A stretch of DNA of 64,000 nt from a virus (lineage: Duplodnaviria > Caudoviricetes): IMG/VR virus record IMGVR_UViG_3300025073_000989; one strand, 5' to 3'. Made by a program: the position numbers and the translations under genes. Positions 7,549 to 43,443 of this stretch are shown piece by piece. The notes under the pieces were generated by a model. That model was not told the origin of the DNA and did no database searches. It saw only the letters and a list, made by a program, of their open reading frames with translations. Within the stretch, counting starts at the first letter, position 1, and each line of letters starts with the position of its first letter.

Positions 7549-7966
7549 ATCCGTTGGTTCCTCTAACTGTTTCTTCTAAATTAGTAGTCTCAATAAAGTG
7601 TGCTGTATAAACTGGACTAAACTTCATTTGTGCTACTCGTTCTCCTTTTTCAATACTAAGCTCTTCTTTCCCGAGGTTAATAAGGGCTACTTTTATATTG
7701 TTTCGATAATGATTGTCCACAGTGCCTGGCTGATTTATTACAATAAGTCCTCGCTTCCAAGCTTGGCCGCTACGTGACCTTATTTGAGCCTCAAAGCCCT
7801 CAGGCATAGCGATCTGTAAACCAGTGTCTGCCAGGTAACGTTCTCCTGGTTTAATCGTGAAGGACTCTACAGTGGCCAGATCACAGCAAGCATCTCCTGG
7901 GTAAGCGTAAGTTGGAACTACTGCGTCTTCATGCACCTTCTTTAAATAAACTCTGATGTCGTTCAT
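7529..7966 (-). CDS. dut: Trimeric dUTPase
   Basis: GDACCDL, RSRSG, PGTVD..YR, AQM, RG..GFGSSG (five motifs). Confidence 0.95.
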   Translation of the reverse strand: MNDIRVYLKKVHEDAVVPTYAYPGDACCDLATVESFTIKPGERYLADTGLQIAMPEGFEAQIRSRSGQAWKRGLIVINQPGTVDNHYRNNIKVALINLGKEELSIEKGERVAQMKFSPVYTAHFIETTNLEETVRGTNGFGSSGR

Positions 7967-9636
7967 GTTTGGATCTCCTTTGGTTCATAAATATATCTTA
8001 TTTTTCCACAATCATAAATCTTTTCTAATCCTAACTCTTTTCTTAAATCTTCCTCTGTTTTACCTTCTATATCTAAACCATATTTATTAGCAAAAACTTT
8101 TTTTCTAAAATTAAATTTATGCTCTCTCCTACCATTAACGAGATAAGAATAATCTGGTGGTAATATTTTATCTACTTTAAATCCTACAGCTTCATAGCTT
8201 TTACCAGTAAACATAGATATATCACAGAAGGTTACTATTTTTACTAAGTAAACTCTGTCTACATATTTTATAACCTTTCCTAGCGCTCCAAAAACTTTCG
8301 TATTTAATAAGCAGGCATGCCGTTCTAATTGAAAATAACCTTTATGTATAGAAAAAACTGAAGCAGAAACTAACTCATTTTCATAAAAAAGACCTAAGTA
8401 AATACTACCTTTAGCTGAACCTTGTATATGATTCTTATTTAAAAACCCCTTGACATCTTCATAGTCTATCTCCATCAACTTAGTTTTTCGGCCGTAAATA
8501 ACTTTGTCTACAAAACCTAACCTTGCTTTTAAAAAAGACTTTAGTATTTCCTTTTTTAAGTTCCAACTATCTTCCCATACATGTATTAATTCATATCCTT
8601 CTTTGGCGCATAGTTGGGTTTTATTTAGATGATAATGTTTACTTCCTAATAATTCCTCTGTATGCCAATAAAGGCCATTAAACTCTATGGCTATTTTCTT
8701 ATCAGGTATAACTATGTCTAACTCTTTTGGTCCTATAAGTTCCTTATTATTATTTACACTGTTTATACAAATTGTATTTACAAATTCCTGTAGCTCTGTC
8801 TCTCCTTTAGAGCCCTTACTATAACATTTTGGACAGTTAGACTCATTACTTATATGAGAAGCAGGAGCTTGTGCAAATATACCGTGAGATTTACATATTA
8901 TATTAACTTTATCATTATATCCAGTGTACTCTACTAAAGAATAATCATATCTATCTCCATGAATTTCTTTAAATTTATTTAAAATAAACTCTTTGGTATG
9001 TGTAGTTTTTTCTTTCACAGACTCAATGCCACATTTAAAACATCCATATGAGAAGTGCTCCGCAGGTCTTTGTAAAAACTCTCCATGTTTTGGACAAACT
9101 ATAATAACTTTATCAGTAGCACTATTATATTTTACTTTTGAGTAATCATATTTATTTCCATGAACTTCAATAGCCTTTTCAATAAATAATAAACTTGAAT
9201 TAAATGCTTTTCGTTTTCCTTTATCTATATCAGAACATTTTAAACAAGCTAATTGTTTTTGACAACGTAGGTGGTTGCTGGGCATCTGATTAAATTCCCC
9301 ATGTATCGGGCATATTATTATTACATTTTTTATATTTTTTTTATAATCTACTTTAGAGTAGTCGTAATAAGCCCCATGAACTTTTTTGGCCTGATCTATA
9401 AAATCTAATAAGGTTTTTCGTTGCTTTTTATGTGTTGCTTCACATGCACATTTAGGACAACAAAAATTACTCTTAATATGTGATAAATAATCCTGATTAA
9501 AATTACCATGATCTTTACAACATATAATAACTTTATCAGCTTTATTCATACTGTTTGGTAACAGATTATAAATAAATTTGTTACCATGTTTTTTTAAAGA
9601 TGCCTCTATAAATTGCTCTTTTGTTAATTTATGCAT
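7963..9636 (-). CDS. Free-standing homing-type endonuclease: repeated Zn-binding DYSKV.Y...C..HG units plus C-terminal PD-(D/E)xK (DUF559/EDxHD-like) nuclease
   Basis: Four HG..YDYS.V.Y....KV.I.C..HG.F repeats; ELDI.IP..KIAIE.NGLYWH, IHVWED. Confidence 0.8.
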   Translation of the reverse strand: MHKLTKEQFIEASLKKHGNKFIYNLLPNSMNKADKVIICCKDHGNFNQDYLSHIKSNFCCPKCACEATHKKQRKTLLDFIDQAKKVHGAYYDYSKVDYKKNIKNVIIICPIHGEFNQMPSNHLRCQKQLACLKCSDIDKGKRKAFNSSLLFIEKAIEVHGNKYDYSKVKYNSATDKVIIVCPKHGEFLQRPAEHFSYGCFKCGIESVKEKTTHTKEFILNKFKEIHGDRYDYSLVEYTGYNDKVNIICKSHGIFAQAPASHISNESNCPKCYSKGSKGETELQEFVNTICINSVNNNKELIGPKELDIVIPDKKIAIEFNGLYWHTEELLGSKHYHLNKTQLCAKEGYELIHVWEDSWNLKKEILKSFLKARLGFVDKVIYGRKTKLMEIDYEDVKGFLNKNHIQGSAKGSIYLGLFYENELVSASVFSIHKGYFQLERHACLLNTKVFGALGKVIKYVDRVYLVKIVTFCDISMFTGKSYEAVGFKVDKILPPDYSYLVNGRREHKFNFRKKVFANKYGLDIEGKTEEDLRKELGLEKIYDCGKIRYIYEPKEIQT

Positions 9637-11542
9637 TTATTTTATCACATTTTATGCAAGTTAAATCTTTGTCTCTAAACTCAAACTCTATACCACCACA
9701 CTTTTTACCATCTACTGGATTTTCACATTTTTCTTTTGTCCAACAATGACTTATAAGTCCAGTAGTTTCCATTCCTATATGTGTAAAATAAAAACCAAAA
9801 CCTCTAATAATGCAATCTTCAACTATTTTAGTTACTTCATATCTCTTATCAAACAAAGTTTCTATGATTACCTCGTCATGCACAGTAAGAATTAGGCATG
9901 CATAATAATCTAGTTTTTCAAGTTCTTCTACAATGTAAATCATTGATTTCTTTATAGTATCACTATTTGACCCCTGAATAGGGGCATTCTTTGCCTGCCT
10001 TTCTATACTACGTGTAACTGTTTTGTAATCAGATGATGATACTGATGGTACATCATAAAAACGCTTTCTTCCAGATATTGATCTACTAAACCCAAACCTT
10101 ACAGCATCCTTACCAGACTTAGTTAAGTATGAATAAACTTTAGGATAAGCCTTAAAATATTCATTTATTGTCTTTTCTGCCTCTGCTTCTGATATTTTTA
10201 GTCTATTAGATAACCCATACTTAGACATACCATAAATAATGCCAAATCCAATAGCCTTTGCAGGCTTTCTATACTTTGAAGCTGCTGCCTCCACCATGGA
10301 TACTTTAAATATCTCAGAAGCTGTTTTAGTATGAATGTCTATTCCATGGTCATAGCAATATTTAAAAGCAGGTTCTTCTGATAGATTTCCAAGGATACGG
10401 ACTTCGGCACCTGACATATCTGCTGTTATTAACACACAACCTTCCTTAGCTATAAAGCCACTCCTATATTTCTGTTTACCAGGAATGTTTTGTAGGTTCG
10501 GATCAGAACTACTCATTCTTCCAGTTGAAACCATCTGTTTAAATCTAGTATGCAGTCTACCAGTTACTGGGCTTATCTTATCTAATAATGCTTCTCCGTA
10601 CGTAGATATAAACTTCTGGGTTTTTCTATATCCCAACAAAGCATCTATCACTGGATGCCCTTCGTGTTTTTCAAGTTCACCAACATCCGTTCTCTCTAAA
10701 TTAAACCCAAACTTCTGTAATTCTTTTTTAAGCTGTTGGTTGCTGTTTATATTTATTGTAGACACCCCAAATAAAGTTGTCTGTTCTGATTTAGTTGAAA
10801 AAATGTCATGTAAAGTATTTTCATACTCTTGTCGTTCTTCTTCAGCATCAACCATTAACTCTCTCCACCTAGTAACGTCAATAGTAATCCCGTTTAACTC
10901 CATCTCACACATTGCCCTTACAAAATCAAACTCCAATTTAGCAACGTGCTCAAGCCCATGTTTTTTCAACTCCATTATCTGCATATCACGAATTATATTT
11001 AAAATAACAACATCGTTAGCTGCATAAACAAGCTGATAGTCTTTATACTCCTGGTTATACTCTTCAAATGATTTAACTGGCTGCTTATCCATTTGGATAC
11101 CAAGGTATTTTCTAACAAGAGCCTCTAAACTAGCCCCCCTTTGCGTTATACCCAACTTCAACAACTGTTCAGCAATCATAGTATCATATATATTTTCAAT
11201 ATAAAATCCCCAGTGATATTTAATCATCTTCATATCAAATGAAGCGTTTTGTAGAATCTTTAAAATGGATTTATTTGTTAGTATAGACTTAAATACCTGA
11301 GGATTTATATTGTTATATGTAGTATAACTGCGCACATCAAAAACGTAAGCCCTACCAGCAACCCCCATCTGCAATAAAACTATCTTTGAAGTAAACACAT
11401 CCAAACCAGTAGTTTCAGTATCTATCTCTATTGTATCATAAGAACTTAATGCCTCCAACACCTCTAGTGCCCTAACTTCAGTGGTTATGTATTCAAACTT
11501 TGGCCTTGGTAAAAAAACATCCTCTTTAGCAAAAACACTCAT
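9629..11542 (-). CDS. polA: Family A DNA polymerase (3'-5' exonuclease + polymerase, no 5' nuclease) with C-terminal Cys cluster
   Basis: DTETTG, NASFD, YAAND; TGRMSSSDPNLQNIP, DMSGAEVR, K...FGIIYG, NAPIQG, VHDE. Confidence 0.95.
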   Translation of the reverse strand: MSVFAKEDVFLPRPKFEYITTEVRALEVLEALSSYDTIEIDTETTGLDVFTSKIVLLQMGVAGRAYVFDVRSYTTYNNINPQVFKSILTNKSILKILQNASFDMKMIKYHWGFYIENIYDTMIAEQLLKLGITQRGASLEALVRKYLGIQMDKQPVKSFEEYNQEYKDYQLVYAANDVVILNIIRDMQIMELKKHGLEHVAKLEFDFVRAMCEMELNGITIDVTRWRELMVDAEEERQEYENTLHDIFSTKSEQTTLFGVSTININSNQQLKKELQKFGFNLERTDVGELEKHEGHPVIDALLGYRKTQKFISTYGEALLDKISPVTGRLHTRFKQMVSTGRMSSSDPNLQNIPGKQKYRSGFIAKEGCVLITADMSGAEVRILGNLSEEPAFKYCYDHGIDIHTKTASEIFKVSMVEAAASKYRKPAKAIGFGIIYGMSKYGLSNRLKISEAEAEKTINEYFKAYPKVYSYLTKSGKDAVRFGFSRSISGRKRFYDVPSVSSSDYKTVTRSIERQAKNAPIQGSNSDTIKKSMIYIVEELEKLDYYACLILTVHDEVIIETLFDKRYEVTKIVEDCIIRGFGFYFTHIGMETTGLISHCWTKEKCENPVDGKKCGGIEFEFRDKDLTCIKCDKINA

Positions 11543-11544
11543 AA

Positions 11545-12621
11545 TTATCCCCTATCAGCCATTATCTGCGTAACTTTAAACATATTATTATAAAAAACAT
11601 ATTCTGCCGGTTTACCTGTCATGTATATTGGAACACTTAAAATATCTAAAGCTTTGGATAATTTCACACCTTCTCCAATTTTACCTGCCTTTTTTAAACA
11701 TGCTACAAAGTAACCACAAACAGCTATCCTTACTGCCTCAACGGGTAAAGTTGTATTTAGTTTATCAAACATACCTATTGAATCCTTAAATCTACCAAAC
11801 GATAAAGCTCTGCATAATTCTAATAACTGCGGACTGTCCTCGGCGAGAAGAATACCCAAAAACTGATTAACAGCCTCCAAAGACCACGAGCCCTCATTCA
11901 TAATATCATTTAATATAACTAAAGCATCTCTTGGTACGCCTTTGGTTTCTTCAGCTATAAGGTTTATCACATCCTCTTTATATTCTTCGCCTTCATATTG
12001 AACCACATTTATTAGCATTGCTTTTATGTCACCAATGGGCAAAGTATCAAACTGCATTCTAGAGCACCTTGATAAAAAAGCATCACCTCCAACCTTTTTA
12101 CTTTTCATTGAATCTGGTTGATTGGTACAAAAAATAAAATAAACATGAGAATATCCATCTTCTATCTCTTTTAAAAGAAGATCTTTAGCGGCGTCTGTTA
12201 GCTTATGAGCTTCGTCAAGAATTAAAACTTTATTTCTAGCATTAAAAGGGGCAGAAGGTAAATCTTTTACTAACTTTTCAATAGCATCTTTGCCTCCATC
12301 CCTACCAACATTAACCTCATGAATATCTATGTTATTACCATTAAGAATCGACTTACAGGATTGACAAGACAAACATGGAGCAGACGTAGATAAAGCAGTA
12401 GCCTCACAATTTACACTCAAAGCTATTATCCTAGCTACGCTGGTTTTGCCACAGCCGGCCTGACCGCTAAAAAGAAGAGTACGTGGTAATTTATTATTAT
12501 CTAAGTAATTTTTCAAAAGTTGTTTATTTTTACCGTTACCAATTAGTTCATCCACAGTACAAGGCCTGTATACAGTACTTAAACTATTACCCCTCATATT
12601 GTTTTCTCTTTTTACAAGCAT
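11545..12621 (-). CDS. dnaX: Clamp-loader AAA+ subunit (DnaX gamma/tau-like, short form)
   Basis: YRP....LIG, GQAGCGKTS Walker A, C...PC..C..C zinc module, LDEAH, SRC. Confidence 0.88.
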   Translation of the reverse strand: MLVKRENNMRGNSLSTVYRPCTVDELIGNGKNKQLLKNYLDNNKLPRTLLFSGQAGCGKTSVARIIALSVNCEATALSTSAPCLSCQSCKSILNGNNIDIHEVNVGRDGGKDAIEKLVKDLPSAPFNARNKVLILDEAHKLTDAAKDLLLKEIEDGYSHVYFIFCTNQPDSMKSKKVGGDAFLSRCSRMQFDTLPIGDIKAMLINVVQYEGEEYKEDVINLIAEETKGVPRDALVILNDIMNEGSWSLEAVNQFLGILLAEDSPQLLELCRALSFGRFKDSIGMFDKLNTTLPVEAVRIAVCGYFVACLKKAGKIGEGVKLSKALDILSVPIYMTGKPAEYVFYNNMFKVTQIMADRG

Positions 12622-34451: not shown

Positions 34452-35237
34452 TTATAAATTCTCCAATACTTCTATTTGTTCTTTTGTTAAATTATCAACT
34501 GAAGGTAAATTCATTTTTAGCTTTATATATAAATCTCCATCAGGCCCACCGTTTACACCTTTACCACCTCTGTAAGCAAAAGGTAGTATTTTACCATCAT
34601 CTACCCCTTTACTTATTTTAATATCTATATTACGATTTTCTATTAAAGTAGTACCTGAGCCATTGCATTTATCACATTTTGTTTTAACAACCCTACCCAA
34701 ACCGTTACAAGCAGCACACGTTGTCATAGAACGCATCACCATACCACCATCACGACGAATTTGTGAAAAAACGCCCACACCATTACAGTTGGTACAATTA
34801 TCTGACTCAGAAGCACCAGAACCCTTACAATCTATACATATATCATTATAACTAACATTAAAATCATAGTCACCACCAAAAATAAAGTATTTCAAAGGAA
34901 TATCTATAACAAACTTTAAATCTTGGCCTTTCCTTGGAGCATTGGGATCAGGTCTTTGTCTGGTAAAAGGACCATTAGCAAATGGGTTGCCGAAACCAAA
35001 GCCCTTAAAAAGATCTTCCATGTTAGAGACTGGATTATCATACTCCCTACGCTTGGCTTCATTAGATAAAACAGAATAAGCCTCATTTATATCCTTAAAA
35101 ACGGCCTCAGATTCTTTGTCGCCTTGGTTTTTATCTGGATGGTATTTAAGTGCTAGCTTTCGGTAAGCTTTTTTTACTTCGTCACTAGATGTTTCTTTAT
35201 TAATACCTAAAATACTATAATAATCCTTAGTACTCAT
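34452..35237 (-). CDS. dnaJ: DnaJ co-chaperone (J-domain, four CxxCxGxG repeats, CTD-I only)
   Basis: DYY.ILG, YHPDKN, CxxCxGxG x4, GDLY. Confidence 0.9.
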   Translation of the reverse strand: MSTKDYYSILGINKETSSDEVKKAYRKLALKYHPDKNQGDKESEAVFKDINEAYSVLSNEAKRREYDNPVSNMEDLFKGFGFGNPFANGPFTRQRPDPNAPRKGQDLKFVIDIPLKYFIFGGDYDFNVSYNDICIDCKGSGASESDNCTNCNGVGVFSQIRRDGGMVMRSMTTCAACNGLGRVVKTKCDKCNGSGTTLIENRNIDIKISKGVDDGKILPFAYRGGKGVNGGPDGDLYIKLKMNLPSVDNLTKEQIEVLENL

Positions 35238-36014: not shown

Positions 36015-36329
36015 CTAAATTAAAATAAAATTATCTACTATAATCTCTGTCCAATATTTTTTGTCAGATCCTTTACAGTACCTACACTGACCGTCATAAG
36101 AGCTTTCTTCTATATGTCCATGTATCCTAACATAACTATCCTTGGGTAATACGCTTAAAGCTTCCGCCAAATTACCCCAAGCACCAATTTTAATATACTG
36201 AAACAAACCACAATCATCTGGGGACGGTATAGCTAATTTAGCTTTAAACATATAGTTATCATTGTCTAACTCTTTAAAACTAGGATATGTAATCTTGCCC
36301 ATTAAAATAACAAAGTTTTCTCCCCGCAT
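36015..36329 (-). CDS. ssb: Single-stranded DNA-binding protein (OB fold)
   Basis: N.V.L.G.I, I.AWG.LAE, V.I.G.I, TEIIVD. Confidence 0.75.
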   Translation of the reverse strand: MRGENFVILMGKITYPSFKELDNDNYMFKAKLAIPSPDDCGLFQYIKIGAWGNLAEALSVLPKDSYVRIHGHIEESSYDGQCRYCKGSDKKYWTEIIVDNFILI

Positions 36330-37375
36330 TAAAAATATCCCTCTAAATATGACATTATTTTATCTTTGGATAGGTCTGAAGGATCCATACCACTTTCAGT
36401 TATAAATACTGGAATCAACGGTTTAATATTACCATTTAGTTCATTAAAAGACGCAATAGTCCCTTCTACTCCGGCCTTGTCACCATCAAAAAACAAAACT
36501 ACGCCTTTAGGGGCATTTGCATATAGAAGAATCCTCTGGTACTCTGTTACAAAAGATCCCATAATAGCCACTACGTTTCTTATACCATACTCATACAAGC
36601 GCCATACACTCTTAAAACCTTCAACAACAATAATAGGTTTGTTTGTACAAAACTCCCTAGCCTTGTCTAAGTTATACAAAGTTCTATCTTTATCAAAACC
36701 CGGCGTTAGTTTATATTTAAAACTTGAGTCTTTTATGTCGTTATTATCTCTAGTATCCCTTAAACTATAAGCGCGCAGTTTACCATGTTCGTCTCTTATA
36801 GGTATAATGTCTCTAATTATATTATTATAATCTTTATAGCCACCGGCAACTTCAAAGTAATCCAAAGTAGCTTCTTTAAACCCATCCTTTATAAACATTA
36901 AAGACCTAAAGGGCTTAAATTGGTTAAGCGAATCCTCATTTACTATAGGGGGCTTATTGTCTACTTTTTTAACAATTCTGAGAATGCGATCTGTCTCTCT
37001 ATTCATTTTAAATTTAGAAAACTCTTTACTAAAATCACCTATAGCACCAACTAAACCCTCTAGATAGTGAACAGCCGACATAAAATTAGTTTTATGAACA
37101 GCCATTATTAGGCCTATAACATCATAACTAAAAGATTCATGACATTTATTAGTAAAACAAATCCAGGTACCTGTTTCTTTATTAAACCTAAAAGCTGATT
37201 TATTATCACCACCGTGTATTATACAAGCACATCTAATTTCTTTATTAGAATCCCTTTCTATATCAAAACCAAGAGATACTAGAAGATAGTTATAGTCTAC
37301 TGCCAATTTTAAGCATTCTAGTTTATGCTTAAGTTCTAATCTAGCTTCACTATCAATAGAGTTGTTGATGCTCAT
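36329..37375 (-). CDS. dnaG: DNA primase (CHC2 zinc finger + TOPRIM); annotated ATG lies inside the IS right end
   Basis: C..H..D....F....W.CF..C, IIPI.D, LYN, VVEG..S, FFDGD.AG, DP.D. Confidence 0.9.
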   Translation of the reverse strand: MSINNSIDSEARLELKHKLECLKLAVDYNYLLVSLGFDIERDSNKEIRCACIIHGGDNKSAFRFNKETGTWICFTNKCHESFSYDVIGLIMAVHKTNFMSAVHYLEGLVGAIGDFSKEFSKFKMNRETDRILRIVKKVDNKPPIVNEDSLNQFKPFRSLMFIKDGFKEATLDYFEVAGGYKDYNNIIRDIIPIRDEHGKLRAYSLRDTRDNNDIKDSSFKYKLTPGFDKDRTLYNLDKAREFCTNKPIIVVEGFKSVWRLYEYGIRNVVAIMGSFVTEYQRILLYANAPKGVVLFFDGDKAGVEGTIASFNELNGNIKPLIPVFITESGMDPSDLSKDKIMSYLEGYF

Positions 37376-37872
37376 CGGGCACCGCCCGACGATTTCAGTT
37401 TACCTTCCTTCAAAGGTATCTGATTTAGGGGAACGTCAATATGCCCCACGGTCGAAACTCTGTCTTCGGCCGTTTGCTCATAAAGAAACCAAGCATTCGC
37501 GGATATATTAAAAGCCACGTTGGCATCTCTATGATCAAAGTGTCCACAAGAGCACTTGTAGTGCTTACCATTTGGTTTGTTGATGCTTCCACAGCGCGAG
37601 CAAACCTGTCTTGTATAAGCTGGATTTACAAACACTACTGGCACTCCAAGCAAAGTCGCCTTGTATTTGATGAAGGTTTCCAACTGATAAAAAGACCATT
37701 GAGATTTCTGAACATAGCTCTTGGCTTTACCTTTCTTGGAAATCTTTCCCAAATCCTCTAATACTATGGCGGAACGATGTAGTTTGGCGTAATCAACTAT
37801 GGTTTTGGAAACTTTATGGTTAATTGTAGTTTTCACTGGTGGTGCTCCTTTAGATGTTGTTAAAAAATACAT
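37372..37872 (-). pseudogene. tnpB: TnpB C-terminal remnant (RuvC-II, Zn finger, RuvC-III), N-terminus deleted
   Basis: NHKVSK.IV, IVLEDL, WSFYQL..FI.YKA, VNPAYT...CS.CG, C.CG..DHRD.N.A.NI. Confidence 0.9.
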
Positions 37873-37924: not shown

Positions 37925-39319
37925 TCAAAAAAATTGTTCATCATAACTTGAGCTGCCTTCATTGTGAGCCACGCCATCTTTGAAATTAAATAATTGCCTA
38001 TCGGCCGGTACTTCCTTAATAAATAACATCTCCTTAAAAAAATTATAACCAATACCTGTATCTCCAGTACCTCCTCCCCTACGGCTATCTTTTATTACTA
38101 GCTTATACGGACCACACTTTCCGCCGTATGTCTCCAATACAGAAGTTTCCTGAGCCATCCAAAAAGACACTATATCGCCGTATCTAGCTATTCTATCGCT
38201 ATCTGCAATATCACCCTGCCTATTTAATTGGACGGCTGTAACAAATGGTATATTTAAATCACCAGACAGATCTTTAAGTCTAGTAGCAACATCCCCTAAA
38301 ATTTGATATTCTTTTCTTTGTGTATTAATACTTGTAGACTCTGGCTCTTTTATATAATCAAAAAAAGCTGCCTGAATATCTTCCTTAATTTTATATTTCT
38401 TATACAGGGCCGTAATCTTATCAAGCGAATATCCAGGCATGTATTCATGAAAAAACTTTTTACCCTCAAATATTTTTATTGCTTTAGTTATTTTAGTATA
38501 TGTAGCATCATCATAACCACCGTGCTTTATTATACGCTCTGGTATACCGGTTACCATAGAAATAAGACGGTCTCTCCACTCACTAAAAGTCATCTCAGTA
38601 TCAACATATAATAACGGTTTCTCTGAAACCAGCGCTATGTGTGCCGCCATATTGGTAATAAACGCACTTTTACCCATTTTCTTTCTTGCAGCTACTATAA
38701 AAAGAGTACCAGGAATTAAACCATCTATCTGTGTATCTAATATCGGGTAACCTGTAGAAATACCAGACATATCCTTATATTCTTTTCGTCTTTCTTCTAA
38801 ATAGTCAAGTAGTCCGTCACAGACATTTACTGGCTCTTTAATTGATTTAGCTTGTGTAGATAGGCTCATTATATCTGATTGAATCTGGCCTATAAATTGA
38901 CCACTGTCTTTAGACCCCCTACTTAGGTCTTCCAGTATCTCAATACTAGTATTGTTAATTTTTTTAAATAATTGATACTTAGTACTGGCCTCTAATATAT
39001 CATTAACATATCTATCAAAATTCCCTGGGTCTGAATCCATAAAGTTATATAGCAAATCAAGATACTTTGCATCTATCAGTTCTGTAGCTCCTAATGACTC
39101 TAACTGACGCTCAACCTCAAAAAACTCAAAAGATTTAATATCATACTTCTCATTAAGCATTTTAAGAACACCAAATAGTGTCGAATGACGTACATCCAGA
39201 AAATCCTGCTTATTAACCTTAGACACTAAAGTATAATAAAAATCTATATTATTTACTGCTTTGGATAAAACATACCTTTCAGCATATTCCTTACAAAAAT
39301 CTGAAACATTATACTGCAT
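37925..39319 (-). CDS. dnaB: Replicative helicase DnaB
   Basis: GISTGY..LD..I.GL.PG, AAR..MGKS, E.T, DYI, QLNR, D..D.I. Confidence 0.93.
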   Translation of the reverse strand: MQYNVSDFCKEYAERYVLSKAVNNIDFYYTLVSKVNKQDFLDVRHSTLFGVLKMLNEKYDIKSFEFFEVERQLESLGATELIDAKYLDLLYNFMDSDPGNFDRYVNDILEASTKYQLFKKINNTSIEILEDLSRGSKDSGQFIGQIQSDIMSLSTQAKSIKEPVNVCDGLLDYLEERRKEYKDMSGISTGYPILDTQIDGLIPGTLFIVAARKKMGKSAFITNMAAHIALVSEKPLLYVDTEMTFSEWRDRLISMVTGIPERIIKHGGYDDATYTKITKAIKIFEGKKFFHEYMPGYSLDKITALYKKYKIKEDIQAAFFDYIKEPESTSINTQRKEYQILGDVATRLKDLSGDLNIPFVTAVQLNRQGDIADSDRIARYGDIVSFWMAQETSVLETYGGKCGPYKLVIKDSRRGGGTGDTGIGYNFFKEMLFIKEVPADRQLFNFKDGVAHNEGSSSYDEQFF

Positions 39320-40482: not shown

Positions 40483-41550
40483 TTAAATATCCAACAGGCC
40501 TTGTTGTCTATAACCTTCCTCTAGACCCAATGCCTGGATAACTGCTTTACGAACTATTAAATAAATATCATAATTGTCTCTTAAAAATTGAACAGCTTTT
40601 ACTTCCCCTTGTGCTATATTTTTTCCTTCATAAGAATACCAAGCTCCTGATTTTTCAATTATACCAAGGTCTGTAGCCAAAGTTAAACATTCCCATACAA
40701 CATCATACCCTACACCATATACTAATGGAACGGTGCAAGTTCTAAATGGCTTACTCAGTTTATTCTTTTTTATAGTAAATTTTGTTAAATGGCCTACAAT
40801 TTCTTCGGTATCAGGATTAATTATATGAGTGCTTTTTGCCTCCCCGCCCTCCACTTTGATCCTTCCAGTCGCGCTAAAATCAAGCGCAACCCCACCTGTA
40901 GTCACTTCCCCTCCCGAGTAAGATCCTATCTTACTTCTAACTTGATTGATAAATATTAAGAGGGTATTTGTTTCTCCCGCCAAAGGAATAAATTTACGCA
41001 TCGCTTTAGACATTAAGCGGGCCAAAAGACCCATAAATTGGTCTTCCATATCAGAATCTGCCTCAGATTTTGGGATCAAACTAGATACGCTATCTATAAT
41101 TGCTACATTTATCTCTCCAGTAGCCATTATTTTCTCTAAAACATCCAAATTTTCTTCTCCTGAAAAAGCTCGGACCAAAAGCAATTCGTCTATATTAACA
41201 CCCATTGCCGTAAATAATTTTGGATCGGCGGCCCTCTCCGCATCTACAAAACAACAACGTAGTCCTTGTTTCTGGGCCTGTGCGATAAGGCTCATAGTGA
41301 GTGTAGTTTTACCCCCAGATGGGGGCCCAAAAATCTCGTAACAACGCCCAAGGGCTAGTCCAGAAATCCCTAAAGCCGAATCTAATCCTAAAGACCCTGT
41401 AGATACTGTAGGAATAATAACGTCCTTCTGGTCGCCCATTGAGGTTAATACCTTTCCATACTTCTTCTCAATAGCCTTCCTAACTATGTCTAATGAATCT
41501 ACCTTCCTGTCCTTACCTTCATCTTCCTTTACTTCCTTTTTCTTCGCCAT
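40483..41550 (-). CDS. recA: RecA recombinase
   Basis: STGSLGLD.ALG, EIFGP.SGGKTT, FVDAE, IDSV, FINQ.R.KIG, GG.AL.F, KNK...PF, GAWYSY. Confidence 0.97.
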   Translation of the reverse strand: MAKKKEVKEDEGKDRKVDSLDIVRKAIEKKYGKVLTSMGDQKDVIIPTVSTGSLGLDSALGISGLALGRCYEIFGPPSGGKTTLTMSLIAQAQKQGLRCCFVDAERAADPKLFTAMGVNIDELLLVRAFSGEENLDVLEKIMATGEINVAIIDSVSSLIPKSEADSDMEDQFMGLLARLMSKAMRKFIPLAGETNTLLIFINQVRSKIGSYSGGEVTTGGVALDFSATGRIKVEGGEAKSTHIINPDTEEIVGHLTKFTIKKNKLSKPFRTCTVPLVYGVGYDVVWECLTLATDLGIIEKSGAWYSYEGKNIAQGEVKAVQFLRDNYDIYLIVRKAVIQALGLEEGYRQQGLLDI

Positions 41551-42156
41551 TTAACCTTCTCCCATATTTTTTAATATATTATCAATATCAAATCCCTTTT
41601 GCCCTTCGTACTCTGCGTTTGATTTTCTTACCAAATAATCAAAATAATCGGAATTACTAAAATCACGTTCAGTATTAAGCATACCGATTGCTTTTTCTAC
41701 TACCCATGCCATATCTCCTTGAGTTAGTACTTTAAATCCAATATAAAAAACTAAATTAAAATCATTAGCATTATCTATAATAAAGTTTATAATTTCTGCA
41801 CATTGAATTAATGCTGCCTTTTTTGATATATCACCAGTACTAGATATAGCATCAATAAAATCTTTGGCTATTTTTCTATCACGACTATCGTCTCTAATGG
41901 GCACCAGTTTATCTGGGTAACGCTGTTTAAACTTTTCATAAAAAAAATCTACTAGGTCTATTTGGCTTTTTATATAATTATAATTAAATGTCATTGGAGG
42001 AATAACTTTCCACCCATATGCTTCTAATAAAAGCTTACAGTAAGGAAGTATGTATTCGAATTGATCTGATTTATTAGCATAACGTTTAGACTCTTTTATT
42101 TTATCTGTTAATAGATCTCCAACAGCAATACCATTATTTAGCTCTGCACTAGTCAT
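41551..42156 (-). CDS. Hypothetical protein
   Basis: ORF track; coupled between dnaN and recA. Confidence 0.65.
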   Translation of the reverse strand: MTSAELNNGIAVGDLLTDKIKESKRYANKSDQFEYILPYCKLLLEAYGWKVIPPMTFNYNYIKSQIDLVDFFYEKFKQRYPDKLVPIRDDSRDRKIAKDFIDAISSTGDISKKAALIQCAEIINFIIDNANDFNLVFYIGFKVLTQGDMAWVVEKAIGMLNTERDFSNSDYFDYLVRKSNAEYEGQKGFDIDNILKNMGEG

Positions 42157-43306
42157 CGTTATTACTATCTACCTCTCTTCGTTTAATATAGGTAATAAGG
42201 GATTTTTGATCCTGGTTAGTAGCAGAATCAAAAATTAACCAATTTTTATCATCAGTAAATTTAAACATTATTCTATCATCTGTTATTGCATCTAAAGTTT
42301 GTTTTAAAAAAATACCATTTATATCTACTACAAAATCACCATCAAAATTTACCACGTCTTCGTAAACATATTCCACATAATCGTTAAAAAATTTAAATTG
42401 TTTGTTGTTTATAGTTATAGTTATTCGATTATTATCATCTGACACTAAATTACCTAAAACAGACACCAAACCGGATAGCATTATTTCTTTATTTAATTCA
42501 ACTACATATTCAAATTTTTCAAACAAAGGCTTATATTCCGGATAATCTTGACCTATCACCAAAGCGCCGTAGATACAAATATTATCAAATTTAACACAAA
42601 CCGACCTTTCTTTTATTTCAAAAAACACTTGAACGTCATTCGCAATAGCACGTCTAAGTGCCATTATAAAATCATACTTAAAAACAAACTTACCCTTTTT
42701 AATAGTACTTGTATTATTAATTCTATAATCTGATAATAAAAGTCCGTCAGTACCAGCAAAATGAATACTGTCCTCATCAAAACTTAAACATAAGCCCTGT
42801 AGGTGAGTTCTTAACTCCGTATTATTTATAGCATAAACTACTTTATTTATAGCCGATTTAACTGTATCTGAGTTTAATATAAATGTAGTATCTTTAAAAG
42901 GTTTTGGTAAAACCATCATAACTGCTGGATAAGTCTCTAATGTTAAACTGCCCTTAGACTTCCTTTTGTCCTTAAAAACATTGTCTACTTTTATATTTAA
43001 TTTATTATTAACTGTTCTAAATTTAAATTCTTTTGCGCCAAACTCCTCGTTCCAAGCTACAAAAGAGCCAATAAAGTTTTTAATCTTACTAAACAAAACA
43101 GACACTTCACCACGATCTACTATCTGAACATTATCTATAACAACAGTTATAGCATTTATATCGTTATTGGCCAAAAATATTACTGAATTATCTTCGTTTG
43201 TTTTAATTAAAATCCTACCAGCAGTGTCAGTTGTATTGATTTTTGCAATAATACCTATATTTTTAACTGCCTCTTGAACTCTAGCTACATCCACAATAAA
43301 CTCCAT
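42149..43306 (-). CDS. dnaN: DNA polymerase sliding clamp (beta); true start ATG at 43306
   Basis: GGAG RBS; three-domain length; L.G....F......AGTDG..L, G.DYP.Y. Confidence 0.88.
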   Translation of the reverse strand: MEFIVDVARVQEAVKNIGIIAKINTTDTAGRILIKTNEDNSVIFLANNDINAITVVIDNVQIVDRGEVSVLFSKIKNFIGSFVAWNEEFGAKEFKFRTVNNKLNIKVDNVFKDKRKSKGSLTLETYPAVMMVLPKPFKDTTFILNSDTVKSAINKVVYAINNTELRTHLQGLCLSFDEDSIHFAGTDGLLLSDYRINNTSTIKKGKFVFKYDFIMALRRAIANDVQVFFEIKERSVCVKFDNICIYGALVIGQDYPEYKPLFEKFEYVVELNKEIMLSGLVSVLGNLVSDDNNRITITINNKQFKFFNDYVEYVYEDVVNFDGDFVVDINGIFLKQTLDAITDDRIMFKFTDDKNWLIFDSATNQDQKSLITYIKRREVDSNNDD

Positions 43307-43385: not shown

Positions 43386-43443
43386 GACACAATAAAAAAT
43401 TTAATTAATTGTTATTATAAAATATGATATTCTATATTTTTGT

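What the first reader, a model, noticed from the sequence alone, without database searches (positions are those of the whole stretch)
9629..12621. Family A polymerase apparently wired to a bacterial-type beta-clamp and clamp loader
PolA lacks the 5' nuclease and carries QTTLF (10769-10783), a QxxLF clamp-binding-like motif, just before the NINS.QQL thumb motif, where T7 Pol carries its thioredoxin-binding insert. The phage encodes its own DnaN (42149) and a short DnaX next to polA, but no delta/delta' or DnaE is visible. Inference: a hybrid replisome in which a PolA replicase gains processivity from the beta-clamp, loaded by a DnaX homomer or with host delta subunits.
Basis: partly seen in the sequence, partly recalled or inferred. 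Interest (0 to 1): 0.62.

Follow-up and report, generated by a model that had tools for sequence, protein, structure and literature searches.

The report
Clamp-binding motif on phage polymerase thumb
A 269-kb uncultured phage copies its DNA with a Pol I-type polymerase that carries an invariant beta-clamp-docking-like peptide at the spot where phage T7 polymerase binds thioredoxin, and the phage also encodes its own clamp and clamp-loader ATPase, so this is probably a second, clamp-based way of making such a polymerase processive; binding has not been shown.

Summary
Window 9629-11542(-) encodes a 637-aa family A polymerase with a 3'-5' exonuclease and no 5' nuclease. QTTLF (aa 254-258, 10769-10783) lies in a low-confidence loop between thumb helices H and H1, where T7 polymerase carries its thioredoxin-binding insert.

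A gamma-like DnaX (358 aa) sits directly upstream. A DnaN lies 30 kb away in a DnaB/DnaG/SSB/RecA module. Six-frame family searches of the complete 268,764-bp genome found no DnaE/PolC, PolB, holA or second clamp-loader subunit.

The pentapeptide alone is chance-level. Its conservation is not: Q and F are invariant in 106 homologues at 51-69% identity, inside a variable loop. Eight of 8 related phage records keep dnaX-polA, and 7 of 8 hold dnaN.

Two additions:
- A 200-aa family always encoded after dnaN carries a similar N-terminal motif, though it is degenerate in this phage's own copy.
- crAss-like PolAs carry Q-x-[DS]-[LMI]-F in the same loop without encoding a clamp, so they may use the host's.

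The PolA + beta + single gamma combination was described in 2011 for phages RSL1 and Ma-LMM01. The thumb-tip motif I found described nowhere. Binding is inferred, and the clamp-loader composition is open.

The parts
9629..11542 (-). Family A DNA polymerase (P0001, 637 aa): 3'-5' exonuclease plus polymerase, no 5' nuclease. It is the only polymerase recognised in the genome.
   Evidence: Pfam PF01612 6e-30 and PF00476 6e-87. Klenow, Taq and Bst structures match at about 1e-57 to 1e-61. AF2 model pLDDT 90. No PF07733 or PF00136 in the genome.
10742..10789 (-). Thumb-tip loop between helices H (223-251) and H1 (268-277), residues 252-267. It is about 10 residues longer than the matching Klenow loop.
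   Evidence: AF2 secondary structure, with block pLDDT of about 61 for residues 251-260 against 87 and 81 for the neighbouring blocks. Comparison by eye with the Klenow sequence AGEEFNLSS printed; HMMER's own register is ungapped across this loop. The T7 TBD precedes helix H1 (PMC10201439).
10760..10786 (-). Clamp-binding-like motif E-Q-T-T-L-F-G-V-S (residues 253-261). The core QTTLF is 10769-10783.
   Evidence: Q254 and F258 in 106 of 106 homologues, L257 in 100, G259 in 99, V260 in 96, S261 in 88.
9629..9757 (-). C-terminal Cys-rich extension of PolA (residues about 596-637), modelled as short beta strands; probably a zinc ribbon. Function unknown.
   Evidence: W601, C615, C629 and C632 invariant, C600 and C606 at least 90% conserved. 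Strands 596-598, 619-623 and 626-629 in the model.
11545..12621 (-). Gamma-like DnaX clamp-loader ATPase (P0002, 358 aa). It has domains I-III only and lacks the tau C-terminal domains.
   Evidence: PF13177 1.7e-28. phrog_5846 2.6e-55. Walker A, Zn-module Cys, DEAH and SRC motifs. Directly upstream of polA in 8 of 8 relatives.
42149..43306 (-). Beta sliding clamp DnaN (P0125, 385 aa from the ATG at 43306; the ORF is open to a GTG at 43390).
   Evidence: Pfam beta_2 7.5e-9, beta N 3.6e-5, beta_3 2.9e-3. phrog_947 1.1e-25 over residues 1-361. Family profile against PDB beta clamps 5.6e-20, with the GTDG region aligned to TDGHRL and the C-terminus to VVMPLR. pI 5.1.
41551..42156 (-). P0124, 201 aa, all-helical protein of unknown family. 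Its start overlaps the end of dnaN by 8 nt. Its family carries an N-terminal Q-x-[DST]-L-F-G-type motif, so it is a candidate clamp-binding accessory.
   Evidence: The order dnaN-P0124-recA is kept in 7 of 7 relatives. 309 representative clusters. Strict Q..[LM]F in the first 45 aa of 28 of 150 members and beyond residue 45 in none; logo. The window's own copy is degenerate there. No Pfam, PHROG or PDB fold match.
40483..41550 (-). RecA
   Evidence: PF00154 2.5e-74.
37925..39319 (-). DnaB-type replicative helicase
   Evidence: PF03796 1.4e-31 and PF00772 1e-6.
36329..37375 (-). DnaG-like Toprim primase
   Evidence: PF13662 8e-11 and DNAG_N 2e-3.
36015..36329 (-). SSB (OB-fold, 104 aa)
   Evidence: PF00436 1.9e-6.

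Best explanation
The phage has a bacterial-type replisome (DnaB helicase, DnaG-like primase, SSB, beta clamp, gamma-like DnaX) in which a proofreading family A polymerase takes the place of Pol III alpha. I infer that the polymerase is tethered to the phage's own beta clamp by the peptide D/E-Q-T-T-L-F-G-V-S. This peptide sits in a flexible loop at the tip of the thumb, next to the duplex DNA leaving the active site, where a clamp riding behind the polymerase would lie. The loop is at the position where T7 polymerase carries its thioredoxin-binding domain, so it would be a second solution to the same processivity problem. The clamp is loaded by an ATPase assembly built on the phage DnaX. Its SRC arginine finger implies a multimer; the fifth or 'wrench' subunit is not identified. 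Shown here: gene content, absence of any other polymerase, motif conservation, loop position, and linkage with dnaX and dnaN. Inferred: motif-clamp binding, a processivity gain, and loader composition.
For: PolA is the only polymerase family found in the complete genome. It lacks a 5' nuclease, so it is not a Pol I-style Okazaki-fragment processing enzyme. QTTLF fits the beta-binding consensus QxxLF. Q and F are invariant and L, G and V at least 90% conserved in 106 homologues of 51-69% identity, inside an otherwise variable loop. AF2 places it between helices H and H1 with low local confidence, as expected for an exposed linear motif. The T7 TBD precedes H1 (PMC10201439). dnaX is directly upstream of polA in 8 of 8 relatives, and dnaN is present in 7 of 8 fragmentary relative records. 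DnaX has intact Walker A, Walker B and SRC motifs. DnaN aligns with solved beta clamps through the pocket-forming TDG segment and the C-terminal strand. A second family (P0124) is always encoded after dnaN, and its N-terminus shows the logo [ED]-Q-x-[DST]-L-F-G. E. coli Pol I is stimulated by beta, and PolA + beta + gamma in phages was already read as a replicase (PMC3201878).
Against: crAss-like PolAs keep Q-x-[DS]-[LMI]-F in the same loop, yet their records show no clamp, including the complete crAss001 genome and IMG/VR records that CheckV puts at 96-100% complete. So the motif does not need a phage clamp and could have another partner. Other phages that pair a PolA with clamp-loader or clamp genes lack the motif: Nodularia 2AV2 has a short loop, and RSL1 and Ma-LMM01 have no Q..[LM]F in the frames fetched. 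The window's own P0124 has lost the motif. No delta-like wrench subunit was found, and a DnaX-only loader has no precedent that I know of. The pocket residues that are H175 and R176 in E. coli (numbering from memory) are hydrophobic here.
Confidence: 0.55

Rival explanations
1. The conserved thumb-tip peptide is not a clamp motif. It grips the primer-template duplex itself, or docks another partner such as the helicase-primase, P0124 or a thioredoxin-like protein. PolA is processive by that route or meets the clamp through another surface.
For: The same loop motif is kept in crAss-like PolAs without a phage clamp. One crAss-like genome (cr108_1) has a thioredoxin gene directly after polA. The conservation extends to G-V-S beyond the canonical five residues. 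A thumb insertion with a possible processivity role is proposed for phiKMV-like PolAs (PMC10201439).
Against: The motif matches QL[SD]LF best in exactly the clampless crAss-like group (QLDMF, QLSLF), as expected if they use the host beta clamp. This genome has no thioredoxin (PF00085). The insert is about 10 residues, against about 70 for the T7 TBD. A related motif appears at the N-terminus of the protein encoded next to dnaN.
Confidence: 0.25
2. The phage clamp and DnaX serve something other than PolA. They might recruit the host Pol III core, act in RecA-linked recombination or repair, or act as a mobile activator of late transcription as T4 gp45 does and as phage Mu does with host beta. 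PolA would work without a clamp.
For: dnaN sits next to recA and far (30 kb) from polA. Sliding clamps are used for late transcription by T4 (established knowledge) and by Mu (PMC12867686, listed). The clamp pocket is altered relative to E. coli.
Against: dnaX is fused in an operon-like way to polA (a 2-nt gap in the window, and immediately upstream of polA in 8 of 8 relatives). dnaN lies in the DnaB/DnaG/SSB module. DnaX lacks the tau domains IV-V, which in E. coli bind Pol III alpha and DnaB (established knowledge). PolA carries the motif.
Confidence: 0.15
3. QTTLF is a chance pentapeptide with no function.
For: Q..[LMI]F occurs at the expected random rate in the proteome: 22 seen against 25 expected. 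Klenow itself has QTILF inside helix H1.
Against: Q and F are invariant in 106 of 106 homologues within a variable loop. The motif is retained in 19 of 20 members of the combined jumbo plus crAss-like PolA group, down to 22-30% identity.
Confidence: 0.03

Closest known systems
Ralstonia phage RSL1 and Microcystis phage Ma-LMM01 replicases (Kazlauskas and Venclovas 2011, PMC3201878)
   Same: [quoted passage not shown] The authors proposed beta as the PolA processivity factor and left the loader composition open (host subunits, or a gp62-like partner).
   Different: No contact motif was identified there. In the frames I fetched, their PolAs show no Q..[LM]F, and the loop could not be aligned. 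The PolA here belongs to a different, very large metagenomic clade.
T7 gp5 DNA polymerase with its thioredoxin-binding domain
   Same: A family A replicase without a 5' nuclease. Its processivity element is inserted in the thumb loop just before helix H1 (PMC10201439), the site of the motif here.
   Different: The T7 insert is about 70 residues and binds host thioredoxin. Here the insert is about 10 residues with a QxxLF-type peptide, the genome has no thioredoxin, and it encodes a ring clamp and loader.
Canonical beta-clamp-binding motifs, consensus QL[SD]LF/QxxLF (established knowledge), e.g. the internal QADMF of E. coli Pol III alpha (PMC3201878)
   Same: A short linear motif with Q at position 1, L or M at position 4 and F at position 5, in a flexible segment of a polymerase.
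   Different: The location at a PolA thumb tip is not among described sites. Positions 2-3 are T-T, and there is a conserved G-V-S extension.
Actinobacterial PolA2/APEX polymerases (PMC12926913)
   Same: A family A polymerase with a QxxLF motif (QSSLF), for which AlphaFold models predicted binding to beta. [quoted passage not shown]
   Different: That motif lies in a loop of a dead exonuclease domain of a putative repair polymerase. Here it lies in the thumb of a proofreading phage replicase.
T4 gp43/gp45/gp44-62 holoenzyme
   Same: A phage-encoded polymerase, ring clamp and clamp loader made of one ATPase type plus, in T4, one small non-ATPase subunit (gp62, 187 aa).
   Different: T4 uses a family B polymerase with a C-terminal clamp motif and a PCNA-like trimeric clamp. 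No gp62-like fold was detected here; P0124 gave no structural match.

Membership tests
Family A DNA polymerase (Pol I-like, Klenow architecture) | Polymerase domain with motif A (D..S..E), motif B (R...K...F...YG) and motif C (HDE) | tested here: met
   PF00476 6e-87. ADMSGAE at 374-380, RKPAKAIGFGIIYG at 425-438 and VHDE at 554-557 are read. D375, R425, K429, F433, Y437, G438, H555 and D556 are invariant.
Family A DNA polymerase (Pol I-like, Klenow architecture) | 3'-5' exonuclease domain with Exo I-III acidic residues | tested here: met
   PF01612 6e-30. D41 and E43 (DTET), D103 and Y173...D177 are invariant.
Bacterial Pol I proper | N-terminal 5'-3' (FEN-like) nuclease domain | tested here: not met
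   The protein starts 16 residues before the exonuclease domain. No PF02739 anywhere in the genome.
Beta sliding clamp (DnaN) | Three clamp-fold domains in about 370-390 aa, homologous to polIII-beta over the full length | tested here: met
   Pfam N, central and C domains, although the C-domain match (17.9 bits) is below its gathering score. phrog_947 1e-25 over residues 1-361. Profile against PDB beta clamps 5.6e-20, and 8dt6 aligned over 1-358.
Beta sliding clamp (DnaN) | Head-to-tail dimeric closed ring with a peptide-binding cleft between domains II and III | not testable with these tools
   Only indirect evidence: acidic pI of 5.1, the GTDG segment and C-terminal strand aligned to pocket elements, and a clamp-loader gene present.
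DnaX (gamma/tau) clamp-loader ATPase | AAA+ module with Walker A, Zn module, Walker B DExx, sensor 1 and the SRC arginine finger, plus a collar domain | tested here: met
   PF13177 1.7e-28. Motif positions. The 358-aa length fits domains I-III; the collar was not separately modelled.
DnaX (gamma/tau) clamp-loader ATPase | Tau-specific domains IV-V that bind DnaB and Pol III alpha | tested here: not met
   The protein ends at residue 358 with no C-terminal extension. The form is gamma-like.
Bacterial clamp-loader complex (gamma3-delta-delta') | Delta (wrench) and delta' (stator) subunits | tested here: inconclusive
   No PF06144, only one PF13177 match, and the only paralogue-like AAA+ is RuvB. 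Delta is poorly conserved and could be missed; host subunits or P0124 could fill the role.
Beta-clamp-binding motif (QL[SD]LF / QxxLF) | Q at position 1, aliphatic residue at 4 and F at 5, in an exposed flexible segment, conserved among orthologues | tested here: met
   QTTLF at 254-258. Loop pLDDT about 61 between two helices. Q and F in 106 of 106 homologues, L in 100 of 106.
Beta-clamp-binding motif (QL[SD]LF / QxxLF) | Physical binding to the hydrophobic cleft of the cognate clamp | not testable with these tools
T7-type thioredoxin-binding domain | Insert of about 50-76 residues before helix H1 that binds thioredoxin | tested here: not met
   The site is the same but the insert is only about 10 residues. 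No thioredoxin gene in the genome.

The most novel reading that the evidence does not exclude
A beta-clamp-binding peptide at the thumb tip is an old, shared feature of a large group of phage family A replicases. The group includes a widespread clade of jumbo phages, which bring their own clamp, DnaX and a new clamp-associated 200-aa protein, and the crAss-like gut phages, which encode no clamp and would therefore seize the host's beta clamp. Clamp tethering at the T7 thioredoxin site would then be a general, undescribed processivity mechanism for phage PolAs. P0124 would be the missing non-ATPase partner of a gp44/62-like phage clamp loader, or a clamp-bound replisome organiser.
Probability: 0.35. 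Interest if true: 0.8.

Novelty: new variant of a known kind. Interest (0 to 1): 0.62.

Why it matters
How family A polymerases become processive replicases is known in detail for only a few systems, such as T7 with thioredoxin and the mitochondrial Pol gamma accessory subunit. That large phages pair a PolA with a bacterial-type clamp has been noted since 2011, but no contact site was named and the composition of the replicase was left open. An invariant, exposed QxxLF-type peptide at the T7 thioredoxin site gives a three-residue mutant test of that question. It also suggests convergent use of one thumb loop for two unrelated processivity factors.

The same loop motif in crAss-like phages would mean that some of the most abundant human-gut phages depend on the host beta clamp. 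That bears on their host range and replication biology. The enzyme set (PolA, DnaN, DnaX) could also be a compact, clamp-driven, proofreading replicase for biotechnology.

Tried and rejected
- A megablast of the polA-dnaX region against cultured phages gave no match, and tblastn gave at most 33% identity. There is no close cultured relative.
- A tblastn of DnaN against cultured phages gave no match; the clamp is too divergent.
The long metagenomic contigs of the 120 PolA homologues therefore could not be inspected, and I used IMG/VR loci instead.
- The second AAA+ hit of DnaX in the genome (27528-28514) is RuvB, not delta'.
- The RSL1 and Ma-LMM01 PolAs have no Q..[LM]F and their loops could not be aligned. 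Nodularia phage 2AV2, Bacillus 268TH002 and Listeria LP-037 PolAs have short Pol I-like loops. The loop of the SSP002 polymerase could not be aligned.
- Tested as a delta or gp62 analogue, P0124 gave no answer. Foldseek against the PDB found nothing at E<=0.001. VIA-align wide gave only helical-hairpin matches at Z about 6. The ESM Atlas gave only weak leads (T4 gp59_N at 0.88, Phg_2220_C at 0.90). This is inconclusive, not excluded.
- Another Q-P-T-L-F protein (genome 179970-180545) has no Pfam family and was dropped.
- The thioredoxin rival: no PF00085 in the genome.
- Literature searches for a thumb-tip clamp motif in phage or crAss-like PolAs found nothing.
- A structure of DnaN was not predicted, because both prediction slots went to PolA and P0124.
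Full report
**What is there.** The window is the minus strand of positions 203,342-267,341 of a 268,764-bp IMG/VR virus record. CheckV rates the record 100% complete and its GC content is 34%. Almost all genes run on the window's minus strand.

The ORF at 9629-11542(-) encodes a 637-aa family A polymerase. Pfam places a 3'-5' exonuclease domain at residues 17-186 (6e-30) and the polymerase domain at 245-578 (6e-87). Exo motifs I-III and polymerase motifs A, B and C are intact and invariant in its family. The protein begins 16 residues before the exonuclease domain, so it has no 5' nuclease. No PF02739 nuclease domain exists anywhere in the genome.

Directly upstream, with a 2-nt gap, 11545-12621(-) encodes a 358-aa DnaX. 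It matches PF13177 at 1.7e-28 and phrog_5846 'clamp loader' at 2.6e-55. It has Walker A at 53-60, a four-cysteine Zn module at 72/83/86/89, DEAH at 136-139 and the SRC arginine finger at 184-186. Its length corresponds to gamma domains I-III, and the tau extension is absent.

Thirty kilobases away lies a bacterial-type replication module:
- DnaN, 42149-43306(-). It matches phrog_947 at 1e-25 over its full length.
- A 201-aa unknown protein, P0124.
- RecA, followed by three small unknown genes.
- DnaB.
- An IS605-type remnant.
- A DnaG-like primase.
- SSB.

A profile built from DnaN and 20 homologues matches solved beta clamps at 5.6e-20. In that alignment the GTDG segment lines up with TDGHRL and the C-terminal strand with VVMPLR, which are elements of the peptide-binding cleft.

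**Is PolA the replicase?** Six-frame family searches of the whole genome found no DnaE/PolC (PF07733), no PolB (PF00136), no holA (PF06144) and only the one PF13177 match. The control genomes gave the expected hits. The only other AAA+ protein that resembles DnaX is RuvB. Very divergent polymerases or a delta subunit could still escape these profiles.

**Is the motif more than chance?** As a bare pentapeptide it is not. Q..[LMI]F occurs 22 times in the phage's ORFs against about 25 expected. Klenow itself has QTILF inside helix H1.

The conservation is a different matter. A search of 5.8 billion proteins returned thousands of homologues. The best 120 are 51-70% identical, and many come from contigs of 100-325 kb. 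In an alignment of 106 of them, at 51-69% identity:
- Q254 and F258 are invariant.
- L257 is kept in 100 of 106, G259 in 99, V260 in 96 and S261 in 88.
- The residues just before, 249-252, are variable.

The logo is [ED]-D-Q-T-T-L-F-G-V-S.

An AlphaFold2 model has mean pLDDT 90.2 and pTM 0.89. It puts the peptide in a loop (residues 252-267) between a long helix (223-251) and the next helix (268-277). Local confidence there is about 61, against 81-87 on either side. Compared with Klenow by eye (HMMER's own register is ungapped across this loop), these are thumb helices H and H1, and the loop is about 10 residues longer than Klenow's AGEEFNLSS. The T7 thioredoxin-binding domain is the insertion that precedes helix H1 (PMC10201439).

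**Linkage with the clamp genes.** An IMG/VR scan with the PolA alignment returned 80 loci. The eight loci of the same clade are at least 48% identical to this PolA.
- All eight have dnaX directly upstream of polA.
- Seven of the eight records hold a DnaN. All are fragments, 4-72% complete.
- The eighth carries polA near a contig end.
- The order HAD-like gene, dnaX, polA, dUTPase, RNR is also kept.

**A second protein with the same kind of motif.** P0124 (41551-42156) overlaps the end of dnaN by 8 nt. The order dnaN, P0124, recA is kept in all seven relatives whose dnaN region I fetched.

A profile search found 309 representative clusters, nearly all of 180-215 aa. In the first 45 residues, 28 of 150 members have a strict Q..[LM]F and 53 of 150 a looser form. 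Examples are QTSLFGD, QSTLFGD, QQTLF, QLDMF and QYDMF. None has one beyond residue 45. The aligned logo is [ED]-Q-x-[DSTN]-[LIF]-[FL]-[GS].

So two unrelated families of this phage clade share the peptide type, and one of them is genetically tied to dnaN. This is independent, though still indirect, support that the phage clamp reads this motif.

Caveats apply. The window's own P0124 is degenerate at that position. Its AF2 model (pLDDT 91, all-helical) has no informative match in the PDB. The language-model look-up gave only chance-level leads. I cannot say whether P0124 is a gp62- or delta-like loader subunit, a helicase loader, or something else.

**The motif beyond this clade.** In the same alignment register, twelve further IMG/VR PolAs carry Q-x-[DS]-[LM]-F in the H-H1 loop. 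Examples are QLDMF, QLSLF, QIDMF, QYDMF, QFDMF and QSDMF. None of their records has a detectable clamp, including a 44.8-kb record with terminal repeats (100% complete) and a 110-kb record (96% complete).

The one I searched against cultured phages, L042, found crAss-like phages as its relatives. Seven of these loci form a crAss-like clade with crAss001 on the tree, and L015 and L016 are its sister group. L031 and L034 sit elsewhere on the tree, and L023 was not placed. Among crAss-like genomes:
- crAss001 gp64 has QGDLF.
- IAS virus has QGDIF.
- DAC15 has QRSLF.
- cr108_1 has QQDLF.
- The complete crAss001 genome has no phrog_947 match.

On a quick FastTree of 56 PolAs, the jumbo-phage clade and the crAss-like clade are neighbours. 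Local support is 90, which is weak. Nineteen of the 20 members of the combined group carry the motif. The label needs 5 changes on the tree, against 17.6 when the labels are shuffled.

This result cuts both ways. It shows deep conservation of the peptide in a flexible loop, down to 22-30% identity, and the clampless phages have the most canonical versions, as expected if they dock on the host clamp. But it also shows that the motif does not depend on a phage-encoded clamp, so another partner cannot be excluded. One crAss-like genome has a thioredoxin gene right after polA. The present genome has no thioredoxin.

Conversely, some phages that pair a PolA with clamp-loader or clamp genes lack the loop motif. 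These are Nodularia 2AV2, RSL1 and Ma-LMM01.

**Comparison with what is known.** Kazlauskas and Venclovas (2011) reported that RSL1 and Ma-LMM01 combine a PolA, a polIII-beta homologue and a single polIII-gamma homologue. They suggested that beta is the PolA processivity factor, recalled that E. coli Pol I is stimulated by beta, and asked whether gamma recruits host subunits or a gp62-like partner (PMC3201878). Cultured Vibrio phage SSP002 is annotated with beta, a polymerase, thymidylate synthase and a clamp loader in a row. The 'hybrid replisome' as such is therefore known as a prediction.

The motif and its site are what I did not find described:
- The 2023 reclassification of PolAs does not discuss sliding clamps; the word occurs only once, in its reference list.
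- No listed paper in the searchable library links Crassvirales with a clamp.

The library does not cover most subscription journals, so prior description elsewhere cannot be ruled out.

**Mechanism and confidence.** The most likely mechanism has these steps:
1. The DnaX-based loader places the phage beta ring on primed sites made by the DnaG-like primase behind DnaB.
2. PolA docks its thumb-tip peptide in the clamp cleft.
3. PolA synthesises processively, with proofreading.

I give the whole statement a confidence of 0.55. Taken separately, I put PolA as the replicase at about 0.85, use of the phage clamp at about 0.65, and the QTTLF loop as the contact at about 0.55.

The loader composition is open. 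DnaX could act alone, with host delta and delta', or with a phage-specific partner. I have no basis for preferring one, and P0124 is only a candidate.

Rivals:
- The loop has another partner or grips DNA itself (0.25).
- The clamp and loader serve another process (0.15).
- The motif is chance (0.03).

**Verdict.** This is a new variant of a known kind: a clamp-tethered polymerase, and a predicted phage PolA-beta replicase. It adds a specific, testable contact site, a new clamp-linked protein family, and a possible extension to crAss-like phages. Interest 0.62.

Noticed in passing
window 41551-42156 (-); relatives L092-L098: P0124 is a conserved all-helical protein of about 200 aa, always encoded between dnaN and recA. 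It has 309 representative clusters and no Pfam, PHROG or PDB match. Many members have an N-terminal Q-x-[DST]-L-F-G motif, but the window's own copy is degenerate there. It may be a clamp-binding replisome accessory.
   Followed up: yes
L015, L016, L023, L031, L034, L039, L042-L044, L046, L050, L069; L086 (crAss001), L108-L110: crAss-like PolAs and a few other phage PolAs carry Q-x-[DS]-[LMI]-F (QLDMF, QLSLF, QGDLF and others) in the same thumb H-H1 loop, although their genomes show no clamp or DnaX. They may recruit the host beta clamp.
   Followed up: partly
window 9629-9757 (-): PolA has a C-terminal extension of about 40 residues with conserved cysteines (C600, C606, C615, C629, C632) and W601. 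It is modelled as short beta strands and is probably a zinc ribbon, which is not a usual part of Pol I-like enzymes. Its function is unknown.
   Followed up: partly
window 7963-9636 (-): A 557-aa HNH or homing-endonuclease-like gene (phrog_559 7e-100, DUF723) sits between polA and the dUTPase gene and overlaps the polA stop by 8 nt. In the eight relatives the dUTPase gene follows polA within a few hundred bases, leaving no room for such a gene, so it looks like a recent insertion.
   Followed up: partly
homologues P0045, P0060, P0068, P0071, P0080 and others; L013: Many PolAs of this clade are about 1060-1075 aa and carry an intein with a homing endonuclease (PF14528, PF14890) inside the polymerase. 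The window's copy has no intein.
   Followed up: no
window 37372-37872 (-): A 166-aa ORF with a Cas12f1-like/TnpB TNB domain (3e-20) lies between dnaB and the primase gene.
   Followed up: no
L110 (crAssphage cr108_1) 2213-2482: A thioredoxin-domain gene lies immediately downstream of polA in one crAss-like genome. It could be a T7-like accessory there. crAss001 has an unrelated, membrane-like small protein at that position.
   Followed up: partly
window 34452-35237 (-): A full-length DnaJ (J domain, CXXCXGXG zinc domain and C-terminal domain) is encoded at the end of the replication module.
   Followed up: no
protein P0125: The identical DnaN protein is on record from 11 contigs, the longest 275,832 bp. 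The same or a near-identical phage has therefore been assembled elsewhere, slightly longer than this 268,764-bp record.
   Followed up: no
genome 20001-36000 (L002), outside the window: There is a cluster of RuvB, a sigma-70 region 2 protein, a GNAT acetyltransferase, ATP-grasp/RimK-like ligases, a phiEco32-like COOH-NH2 ligase and glutamine amidotransferases. It may be a peptide or modification pathway.
   Followed up: no
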